A stretch of DNA of 64,000 nucleotides from assembly GCA_964372325.1 (NCBI GenBank), contig CAYJQG010000001.1, positions 120-64,119 on the forward strand. Reading direction: 5' to 3'. This document shows positions 57,920 to 58,577 of the stretch, piece by piece. The position numbers and the translations under genes were made by a program. Every line of letters starts with the position of its first letter. Within the stretch, counting starts at the first letter, position 1. The notes under the pieces were generated by a model. It was given only the letters and a program-made list of their open reading frames with translations. It was not told the origin of the DNA and ran no database searches. This DNA is from an uncultured Candidatus Saccharibacteria bacterium. Lineage in GTDB: Bacteria > Patescibacteriota > Minisyncoccia > UBA6257 > JAUSGH01.

Positions 57920-58498
57920 ATGAAGAACAAAGAACAACGGGTTGGGATTTTTATTGACATTCAAAACCTTTATCACTCTTCGAAGAATCTTTTTCGCGCA
58001 AGGGTAAATTACGAGGTGCTGTTAAAGTCGCTGCTTGATGGGAGGAAACTTATTCGCGCAGTTGCATACGTCGTAAAAACCGATTCAGAAAATCAGCAAA
58101 CCGAAGAGCAGGCAACGCCTGAGGCGGCATTTTTTGATGCGTTAAAGCGCACCGGTATCGAGCTCCGAATGAAAGATATCCAAATTTTCGCAAACGGTAC
58201 AAAAAAGGCAGACTGGGATGTCGGCATGGCAGTAGATGCCATCCGGATGGTCGATTTCTTAGACGTCATTATTTTAGTTACAGGAGATGGCGATTTTGTG
58301 CCGCTTATCGAGTACTTGCGTTGGGGGAAGGGGAGGCAAGTTGAAGTTGCGGCATTTAGCCGTACATCAAATGCGCGTCTGAGAGAGGTGGCAGATGAAT
58401 TTATTGCCCTCGAAGATATACCAAAAATATTAATGCGCGTCTCGGGGAGAAGAATTAATCAAAAATTAACTACATTACCAGAAAACGAGAATGAGTAG
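57920..58498 (+). CDS. NYN-domain (LabA/DUF88-like PIN-fold) putative ribonuclease
   Basis: VGIFIDIQNLY, DVGMAVDAI, IILVTGDGDFVPL, EVAAFS are NYN-family motifs. Inserted between rpsO and pnp. Confidence 0.75.
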   Translation: MKNKEQRVGIFIDIQNLYHSSKNLFRARVNYEVLLKSLLDGRKLIRAVAYVVKTDSENQQTEEQATPEAAFFDALKRTGIELRMKDIQIFANGTKKADWDVGMAVDAIRMVDFLDVIILVTGDGDFVPLIEYLRWGKGRQVEVAAFSRTSNARLREVADEFIALEDIPKILMRVSGRRINQKLTTLPENENE

Positions 58499-58514
58499 AA
58501 TCGAGATGATTCCA

Positions 58515-58577
58515 GTAATTAAGAAATTAAGTAATTTTGTAATGTTTAATTGCCAAATTACTTAATTGCTTAATTAC
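58515..58577 (+). promoter_or_regulatory. 22-bp stem hairpin in the pnp 5' leader (candidate RNase III autoregulatory site)
   Basis: gtaattaagaaattaagtaatt - 19-nt loop - aattacttaattgcttaattac, with one mismatch. Followed by the SD taaggagg and the pnp ATG. Confidence 0.55.

What the first reader, a model, noticed from the sequence alone, without database searches (positions are those of the whole stretch)
57920..58577. NYN/LabA-like PIN-fold nuclease inserted between rpsO and pnp, with a 22-bp hairpin in the pnp leader
The rpsO-pnp pair is usually adjacent, and pnp is autoregulated through RNase III cleavage of a leader hairpin. Here a NYN-domain protein sits between them and a long AT-rich hairpin precedes pnp. 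The NYN nuclease may take part in pnp or rpsO mRNA processing in a lineage that may lack other RNases.
Basis: inference. Interest (0 to 1): 0.55.

Follow-up and report, generated by a model that had tools for sequence, protein, structure and literature searches.

The report
Conserved NYN nuclease inside rpsO-pnp operon
A small predicted RNA-cutting enzyme sits between the genes for ribosomal protein S15 and the RNA-degrading enzyme PNPase in this and about 80 related ultra-small (Parcubacteria) bacteria, which points to a core but untested role in RNA processing; the hairpin in front of pnp is just one of the hairpins that fill most gene spacers of this genome.

Summary

The gene order is strongly conserved. 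In 80 species-level Parcubacteria/Paceibacteria loci, rpsO lies directly upstream of the NYN gene in 79 of 79 testable cases, often overlapping it. pnp follows in 61. All putative catalytic Asp residues are invariant. The protein is as conserved as S15 and more conserved than PNPase.

In an rpsO-anchored control set, other bacteria show the canonical rpsO-pnp pair with no NYN gene. NYN relatives at 39-51% identity (DPANN archaea, Falkowbacteria) are not near rpsO.

The hairpin is generic. In the window, 29 of 42 spacers fold far better than shuffles; this spacer sits at the median. Twenty-five of 60 relatives have 25 nt or less between NYN and pnp. The spacer sequence is not conserved.

Best reading: a housekeeping endoribonuclease co-expressed with S15 and PNPase. 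Its substrate is inferred, not shown. It is not a pnp-leader-specific system. The RNase repertoire of the lineage could not be tested.

The parts
56291..57391 (+). Four-S1-domain protein (ribosomal protein S1-like), directly upstream of rpsO. It is syntenic only in the closest relatives.
   Evidence: Pfam S1 x4, E 7e-40. A 51-62% identical gene lies upstream of rpsO in L001-L003, L005, L006, L013, L021 and L023.
57392..57500 (+). S1-rpsO spacer. It holds a long hairpin built from TACGAAA-type words, and its 3' arm ends 7 nt before the rpsO ATG. No Shine-Dalgarno sequence is present.
   Evidence: dG -34.4 kcal/mol, z -7.8. It belongs to the TACGAAATACGAAA family, found in 7 spacers.
57501..57767 (+). 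rpsO (ribosomal protein S15)
   Evidence: PF00312, E 1.4e-31. It lies directly upstream of the NYN gene in 79 of 79 testable relatives.
57768..57919 (+). rpsO-NYN spacer. It holds a word-hairpin of the same family plus three copies of the motif TTCGTAGCGAATAA, which also precedes the rpsO ATG. No Shine-Dalgarno sequence is present.
   Evidence: dG -41.0, z -3.9. The motif occurs at 57486, 57858, 57879 and 57905.
57920..58498 (+). NYN/LabA-type PIN-like nuclease gene (192 aa). The NYN core is residues 7-165. Residues 56-64 form a variable acidic loop and residues 177-192 form a disordered tail.
58515..58577 (+). 27-bp AT-rich hairpin in the NYN-pnp spacer. It is one of the generic spacer hairpins. 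Its sequence is unique within the window and no T-run follows it.
   Evidence: structure; unique sequence; no terminator-like site; z -4.3 against a median of -4.25; not special and not conserved in relatives.
58608..58612 (+). GGAGG Shine-Dalgarno of pnp, 6 nt upstream of the ATG
   Evidence: Read directly from the sequence.
58619..60718 (+). pnp (polynucleotide phosphorylase)
   Evidence: RNase_PH x2, RNase_PH_C, PNPase, KH_1 and S1 domains. It lies downstream of the NYN gene in 61 of 80 relatives.

Best explanation
The ORF encodes a catalytically competent, single-domain LabA-type NYN (PIN-like) metal-dependent endoribonuclease. In the Parcubacteria/Paceibacteria lineage it became a fixed middle gene of the ancestral rpsO-pnp operon. 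It is co-transcribed with S15 and PNPase and, in many species, translationally coupled to both, so it is made as a housekeeping RNA-metabolism enzyme. The most likely mode of action (inferred) is cutting single-stranded stretches of transcripts or rRNA/tRNA precursors, for example beside stable hairpins. Such cuts would create 3' ends that PNPase can trim, giving an endonuclease plus exonuclease pair. The hairpin in front of pnp is not a dedicated regulatory site. It is one of the long palindromic elements that occupy most intergenic spacers of this genome. Shown: domain identity, fold, invariant acidic residues, operon position and its conservation, and the generic nature of the hairpin. Inferred: RNase activity, substrates and cooperation with PNPase.
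For: Six Asp residues are invariant in 81 orthologues. rpsO lies directly upstream in 79 of 79 loci; the gap is 20 nt or less in 31 and the genes overlap in 8. pnp lies downstream in 61 of 80; the gap is 25 nt or less in 25. Mean identity to the window is 57.5% for NYN, 56.7% for S15 and 51.7% for PNPase, and NYN exceeds PNPase in 56 of 60 loci. That fits a core function under strong constraint. In the NYN-unbiased rpsO-anchored sample, the seven nearest S15 relatives all carry the NYN gene, while 48 loci from other bacteria have rpsO-pnp without it. NYN relatives at 39-51% identity lie elsewhere in their genomes, so the linkage defines one orthologue group. The closest characterised structural relative, MARF1 NYN, is a Mg/Mn-dependent ssRNA endoribonuclease (PMC6294520). 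The hairpin is generic.
Against: No LabA/COG1432-type bacterial NYN protein had been shown to be a nuclease as of the 2017 survey (PMC5499597). Adjacency to both neighbours may simply reflect one insertion into an ancestral operon. Thirteen loci keep rpsO-NYN without an adjacent pnp, so cooperation with PNPase is not obligatory in cis. No NYN-PNPase fusion was found; all 120 close homologues are 153-215 aa single-domain proteins, and longer relatives carry no other Pfam domain. In this window each of the three genes is flanked by strong hairpins, so co-transcription here is assumed, not shown.
Confidence: 0.55

Rival explanations
1. Ribosome-linked nuclease. The NYN protein works with S15 and the 30S subunit, either in 16S rRNA end maturation or removal of rRNA insertions, or as a ribosome-associated mRNA endonuclease. 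The proximity of pnp would then be only historical.
For: The rpsO link is invariant (79 of 79), tighter than the pnp link, and survives loss of pnp from the locus. The gene is often translationally coupled to a ribosomal protein gene and is conserved like one. Cyanobacterial LabA/NYN proteins co-purify with a ribosome-bound RNA-binding protein (PMC12232666). Bacterial NYN domains were predicted from gene neighbourhoods to act in tRNA/rRNA processing (PMC5499597, citing Anantharaman & Aravind 2006). CPR rRNA genes carry many insertions that must be removed (PMC11270868). From my own knowledge: PIN-like Nob1 and ribosome-dependent Rae1 are precedents.
Against: The NYN gene may stay next to rpsO only because it depends on the rpsO promoter. 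DPANN relatives at about 48-51% identity are not next to S15. There is no direct evidence of ribosome binding. This reading is not exclusive of the best explanation, since PNPase also trims rRNA precursors.
Confidence: 0.25
2. First reader's model. The NYN nuclease cleaves the hairpin in the pnp (or rpsO) leader and so autoregulates the operon, replacing RNase III.
For: A 27-bp hairpin does lie in the pnp 5' region, and similar hairpins precede rpsO and the NYN gene. The E. coli precedent of RNase III cleavage in the rpsO-pnp spacer is established knowledge.
Against: The hairpin is at the genome-wide median. It is absent in 25 of 60 relatives with a gap of 25 nt or less. It is no stronger than other spacers in 21 relatives. 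It shows no sequence conservation and no Rfam match. The NYN gene is retained where pnp is gone. Characterised NYN enzymes cut ssRNA (PMC6294520). The very high conservation of the protein fits a broad substrate range better than one operon-specific site.
Confidence: 0.07
3. The hairpin is an RNase III-type processing or stability element for pnp, or a 3'-end protector for the NYN mRNA, and acts independently of the NYN protein, as do the other spacer hairpins.
For: The stem (27 bp) is long enough for a duplex-specific RNase. It starts 16 nt after the NYN stop codon, like other spacer hairpins that begin right after stop codons. From my own knowledge, REP-like elements stabilise upstream mRNA against PNPase in E. 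coli.
Against: No rnc gene was seen in the window. Hairpins also fill 5 of 7 divergent spacers, where no 3' end is expected. No expression data are available.
Confidence: 0.3
4. The protein is a non-catalytic LabA-like regulator, or a defence/toxin-type NYN nuclease.
For: LabA is known only genetically, as a circadian regulator (PMC5499597). PADLOC holds NYN models that match at domain level (E 2.8e-17). A Falkowbacteria paralogue sits beside a rolling-circle Rep gene.
Against: All acidic residues are invariant in 81 orthologues. The gene has a strictly vertical, syntenic housekeeping context with no defence or mobile neighbours. It is single-copy and operon-embedded.
Confidence: 0.04

Closest known systems
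LabA-like NYN domain proteins (Pfam PF01936, subgroup NYN.COG1432; structure 2qip, VPA0982 of Vibrio parahaemolyticus)
   Different: It forms its own tight orthologue group (50-78% identity within Paceibacteria) with a fixed rpsO-pnp context not reported for the family (PMC5499597). It has a variable acidic loop (residues 56-64) and a basic or disordered tail. It has no OST-HTH domain. It scores below the cut-off of the archaeal TIGR00288 equivalog (26 against 178 bits).
MARF1 NYN domain (5yaa; eukaryotic mRNA-decay endoribonuclease)
   Different: Only 14% identity. MARF1 is a 1742-aa multidomain protein with RRM and LOTUS domains that recruit substrates. Here the NYN domain stands alone.
E. 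coli-type rpsO-pnp operon with an RNase III-cleaved pnp leader hairpin
   Same: Same flanking genes in the same order and orientation, with a long hairpin upstream of pnp. The canonical adjacency was seen in 48 of 64 control loci.
   Different: An extra nuclease gene is inserted between the two genes. The hairpin is neither conserved nor distinctive. The presence of RNase III is unknown.
Rae1/YacP (PF05991, NYN_YacP; ribosome-dependent endoribonuclease of Bacillus subtilis)
   Same: PIN-like NYN superfamily, with a small single-domain bacterial protein and a possible ribosome connection.
Plant mitochondrial MNU1/MNU2 (NYN nucleases) acting alongside mtPNPase
   Same: The concept of an NYN endonuclease shaping transcript 5' ends while PNPase trims 3' ends (PMC9181182).
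   Different: The plant proteins are eukaryotic and multidomain (LOTUS/OST-HTH). Their activity is also not demonstrated biochemically, and there is no operon link.
REP/BIME-type intergenic palindromic elements of enterobacteria (relevant to the hairpin only)
   Same: Dispersed families of stable palindromes in spacers, including spacers inside operons.
   Different: Here they are much longer, often spanning the whole spacer at up to -112 kcal/mol. They are built of short repeated words and occupy about 70% of spacers. Neither mobility nor function has been tested.

Membership tests
NYN domain, Pfam PF01936 (LabA-like / COG1432 group) | Match to the family HMM above the gathering score over the full domain | tested here: met
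   114.9 bits against a cut-off of 24.2; residues 7-165 cover model positions 1-145 of 145.
NYN domain, Pfam PF01936 (LabA-like / COG1432 group) | PIN-like alpha/beta/alpha fold of the NYN type, closest to 2qip | tested here: met
NYN domain, Pfam PF01936 (LabA-like / COG1432 group) | Conserved acidic residues predicted to bind the catalytic metal | tested here: met
   D13, D98, D100, D106, D123 and D125 are invariant in 81 of 81 orthologues and align with the 2qip motifs.
NYN domain, Pfam PF01936 (LabA-like / COG1432 group) | Ribonuclease activity | not testable with these tools
   This needs purified protein. The family's bacterial members were uncharacterised as of PMC5499597.
TIGR00288 (archaeal NYN hypothetical equivalog) | Score above the curated equivalog cut-off | tested here: not met
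   26.1 bits against a cut-off of 178.45, and only residues 94-165 match.
NYN_YacP / Rae1 (PF05991) | HMM match, and a GYN motif after the first catalytic Asp | tested here: not met
RNase III-controlled pnp leader (E. coli type) | Long hairpin in the pnp 5' untranslated region | tested here: met
   27-bp stem at 58515-58577, ending 41 nt upstream of the ATG.
RNase III-controlled pnp leader (E. coli type) | The element is specific to, and conserved at, the pnp leader in relatives | tested here: not met
   25 of 60 relatives have a spacer of 25 nt or less. In 21 relatives with spacers, the best hairpin averages -22.0 against -21.4 kcal/mol for other spacers of the same loci. No sequence conservation. 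In the window it sits at the median of all spacers.
RNase III-controlled pnp leader (E. coli type) | RNase III (rnc) encoded in the genome | not testable with these tools
   None is among the roughly 58 window ORFs scanned.
Intrinsic (Rho-independent) terminator | G+C-rich stem followed by a T-run | tested here: not met
   The stem is 19% GC and is followed by CGCGTAACTACAAATG. The scan reports no terminator-like site there.
Anti-phage defence NYN nucleases (PADLOC models) | Match to a defence-system NYN model together with defence-gene neighbours | tested here: not met
   Only a domain-level match (PDLC01154, E 2.8e-17, covering model positions 150-300 of 310). The neighbours are rpsO, pnp and an S1-domain gene, with no PADLOC hits.

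The most novel reading that the evidence does not exclude
The NYN protein is the principal decay- and processing-initiating endoribonuclease of Parcubacteria/Paceibacteria, and perhaps, through its 47-51% identical relatives, of DPANN archaea. It would be a new housekeeping bacterial RNase that forms a minimal degradosome-like pair with PNPase. The ubiquitous spacer palindromes would be the punctuation marks at which polycistronic transcripts are cut and their 3' ends protected.
Probability: 0.15. Interest if true: 0.75.

Novelty: new member of a known kind. Interest (0 to 1): 0.45.

Why it matters
According to the 2017 survey of PIN-like domains, no bacterial LabA/COG1432-type NYN protein had a demonstrated biochemical function. 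Here one orthologue group is locked into one of the best-understood RNA-metabolism operons (rpsO-pnp) across a whole class of ultra-small bacteria, and it is as conserved as a ribosomal protein. That gives a concrete, testable functional hypothesis for the family: an endonuclease working with PNPase and/or the 30S subunit. It also offers a lead into RNA decay in Patescibacteria, which is essentially unstudied. The negative result matters as well. The pnp-leader hairpin should not be read as an RNase III-style autoregulatory site, because such hairpins are the normal state of spacers in this genome.

Tried and rejected
1. NYN-PNPase fusion. L005 looked like one in my script, but a TAA stop codon directly precedes the pnp ATG. 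It was a script artefact, not a fusion.

2. Informative domain fusions in more distant relatives. Ten relatives of 315-552 aa carry only the NYN domain by Pfam.

3. Rfam. At gathering thresholds the window yields only two tRNAs. A permissive scan of 57300-58700 gives only sub-threshold miRNA-hairpin noise. There is no S15 or pnp leader family match.

4. Promoter and terminator scans of 56-61 kb gave no more sites than in shuffles, and none in the spacers of interest.

5. Other copies of the pnp-leader hairpin sequence in the window. Only self-matches were found.

6. Homology between the gene after pnp in the window (60779-61882) and the roughly 340-aa gene after NYN in loci without pnp. The result was inconclusive (BLASTP E 0.08).

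7. RNase census. No RNase III, E/G, Y or J domain occurs in the roughly 58 window ORFs scanned. The whole genome could not be checked.

8. Literature. No paper in the held library combines 'NYN domain' with rpsO. None was found on CPR RNases, and none on Parcubacteria intergenic palindromes. The 2006 NYN paper is not held.

9. The afdb50 fold library was unavailable.

10. A defence-system reading was rejected on genomic context.

Full report
OBSERVATION. The window carries four genes in a row on the + strand. They are a four-S1-domain protein (56291-57391), rpsO (57501-57767), a 192-aa ORF (57920-58498) and pnp (58619-60718). The 192-aa ORF matches Pfam NYN (PF01936) over the whole model, with E 5.7e-33 and 114.9 bits against a cut-off of 24.2. 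The NYN-pnp spacer contains an inverted repeat at 58515-58543 and 58549-58577. Its arms are 29 nt long and 90% complementary, with a 5-nt loop. It folds as helices of 9 + 13 + 5 bp, and the 126-nt leader has a z-score of -4.4 against dinucleotide shuffles. The observation therefore stands as described.

CONSERVATION OF THE ARRANGEMENT. The protein has thousands of homologues at 60-78% identity, all single-domain and 153-215 aa long, from Patescibacteria/Parcubacteria assemblies. A scan of one genome per species returned 80 loci. Their record titles name Wolfe-, Harrison-, Lipton-, Colwell-, Jorgensen-, Taylor-, Azam-, Zambryski-, Kaiser-, Sung- and Nomurabacteria and Paceibacterota. In 79 of these loci rpsO lies directly upstream of the NYN gene; the 80th locus is truncated 213 nt upstream. 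The rpsO-NYN gap has a median of 65 nt, is 20 nt or less in 31 loci, and the genes overlap in 8. pnp follows in 61 loci. Among the 60 loci with measurable gaps, 25 have 25 nt or less between NYN and pnp. One of these is a TAA stop directly abutting the ATG in L005, which first looked like a fusion but is not. Another 24 loci have spacers of 26-350 nt, and 11 have 0.6-4.3 kb of inserted ORFs. Thirteen loci with 1.7-6 kb of downstream sequence have no pnp. Twelve of those share the order rpsO, NYN, a roughly 340-aa ORF, a DksA-like zinc-finger gene, and ComM. In that clade pnp has evidently left the locus, while the NYN gene keeps all its Asp residues. Mean identity to the window is 57.5% for NYN, 56.7% for S15 and 51.7% for PNPase. 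The NYN protein is thus as constrained as a ribosomal protein.

CONTROLS. The first set of loci was anchored on the NYN gene, so I made a second set anchored on rpsO from metagenomes. Of 64 loci with at least 700 nt downstream of rpsO, 13 have the NYN gene directly downstream, and two shorter contigs do as well. The seven best S15 matches are all among the loci with NYN. Another 48 loci show the canonical rpsO-pnp pair with no NYN gene; their PNPases are only about 36-44% identical to the window's, so they come from other bacteria. Looking outward in the NYN family, relatives at 39-51% identity are not near rpsO or pnp. These include one in Falkowbacteria beside a rolling-circle Rep gene, one in Woesearchaeota, one in Nanoarchaeota, and one contig that carries archaeal marker genes. 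The linkage therefore defines one orthologue group confined, as far as sampled, to Parcubacteria/Paceibacteria.

THE HAIRPIN IS GENERIC. The window is full of long intergenic inverted repeats. Of 42 spacers of 60-420 nt, 29 fold with z < -3 against dinucleotide shuffles, and the median is -4.25. The pnp-leader spacer has z -4.3, which is the median. For 150-nt coding controls the median is +0.36, and only 2 of 42 fall below -3. Many spacers are whole-spacer palindromes, for example 56059-56290 at -112.5 kcal/mol and 3462-3607 at -74 kcal/mol. They occur inside classical ribosomal-protein operons, at S13|S11 and L17|L13|S9. They also occur in 5 of 7 divergent spacers, so they are not simply terminators. 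They form families built of short words. TACGAAATACGAAA occurs 21 times in 7 spacers against 1 expected, and these include the S1-rpsO and rpsO-NYN spacers. In relatives the picture is the same. In 21 loci with a NYN-pnp spacer of 60-400 nt, its best 70-nt hairpin averages -22.0 kcal/mol, against -21.4 for other spacers of the same loci. The spacers share no sequence, and no Rfam family matches. The hairpin lacks a T-run and a GC-rich stem. The hairpin is real, but it carries no evidence of a pnp-specific role.

MECHANISM. The best-supported reading is a housekeeping metal-dependent endoribonuclease embedded in the ancestral rpsO-pnp operon and co-expressed with both neighbours. By analogy with MARF1 it should cut single-stranded RNA. 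A plausible division of labour, which is inferred, is endonucleolytic entry followed by 3'-to-5' trimming by PNPase. That would be especially useful in a genome whose transcripts are studded with exonuclease-blocking hairpins. A serious rival places its function with S15 and the ribosome. The rpsO link is the invariant one, translational coupling to a ribosomal protein gene is frequent, and cyanobacterial LabA/NYN proteins co-purify with a ribosome-bound RNA-binding protein (PMC12232666). The two readings are not exclusive. Whether the lineage lacks RNase III, E, Y or J could not be tested. None of these is among the roughly 58 window ORFs scanned.

COMPARISON AND NOVELTY. The protein is a clear member of a known family whose bacterial members have no demonstrated biochemical function (PMC5499597). 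That survey mentions operon links to SpoU, RNase T and TrmB, but none to rpsO or pnp. No paper in the held library combines 'NYN domain' with rpsO. I therefore rate it a new member of a known kind, with a previously undescribed and very stable operon context. It is of moderate interest as a handle on the function of bacterial NYN proteins and on RNA decay in Patescibacteria.

Noticed in passing
whole window; e.g. 1010-1132, 3462-3607, 4537-4790, 9296-9522, 53453-53730, 54172-54390, 56059-56290: About 70% of intergenic spacers (29 of 42) are long, highly stable palindromes, often spanning the whole spacer (up to -126 kcal/mol, z down to -15.6). They fall into dispersed families built of short repeated words (TACGAAA..., TTTCTAAT..., CCAAAT/CTCAAAT..., CACTAGT..., GCATATCGC...). 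They sit even inside r-protein operons (S13|S11, L17|L13|S9) and in divergent spacers. No description was found in the held literature. Spacers in the related Paceibacteria loci generally fold about as stably.
   Followed up: partly
57486-57499, 57858-57871, 57879-57892, 57905-57918: The motif TTCGTAGCGAATAA, followed by CATG, directly precedes the start codons of both rpsO and the NYN gene and is triplicated in the rpsO-NYN spacer. There are 4 copies, all in these two spacers, against 0.8 expected. Neither gene has a Shine-Dalgarno sequence, whereas pnp has GGAGG. The closest relative (L001) has only a 4-nt rpsO-NYN gap, so the motif is not conserved.
   Followed up: partly
L086-L091, L084-L085 (relatives P0158, P0272, P0275, P0154): Outside Parcubacteria, the relatives at 47-51% identity whose context or source name I examined come from DPANN archaea (Woesearchaeota and Nanoarchaeota by source names; one contig carries archaeal NOG1 and L10e genes), or have no assigned origin (P0275, unnamed Logan contig). 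None has an S15/PNPase context. This suggests inter-domain transfer between two groups of ultra-small symbionts.
   Followed up: partly
L042, L052, L055, L056, L058, L059, L064, L066, L067, L068, L071, L076: One clade of relatives has lost pnp from the locus. The order there is rpsO, NYN, a roughly 340-aa unknown ORF, a DksA/TraR zinc-finger protein, then ComM/YifB. ComM also lies just downstream in the window (62464-63798, minus strand).
   Followed up: partly
L081-L083 (P0222, Candidatus Falkowbacteria): A 39% identical NYN paralogue lies at the end of a block of unknown ORFs next to a rolling-circle replication initiator gene (REP_ORF2-G2P). This suggests that some NYN genes in CPR travel on mobile elements.
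   Followed up: no
35750-36554: An 805-nt spacer holds two tRNA genes (35896-35967 and 36241-36311). A perfect 22-bp hairpin (36309-36356) starts within the last bases of the second tRNA.
   Followed up: no
9523-10533, 19530-20576, 20583-21296, 21746-23623: Two MreB paralogues, plus MreC and a PBP2-type transpeptidase, give a full rod-shape module in an ultra-small bacterium.
   Followed up: no
29573-32032 (minus strand): An 819-aa fusion protein combines CN_hydrolase, NAD synthase and a C-terminal cytidylyltransferase-like (NadD-type) domain.
   Followed up: no
62136-62381 (minus strand): A Phd/YefM-type antitoxin gene sits alone between the post-pnp gene and ComM. No toxin partner was identified.
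   Followed up: no
1-64000: GC skew is positive in 31 of 32 2-kb bins, and about 80% of the genes are on the + strand. This is consistent with the whole window lying on one leading-strand replichore.
   Followed up: no
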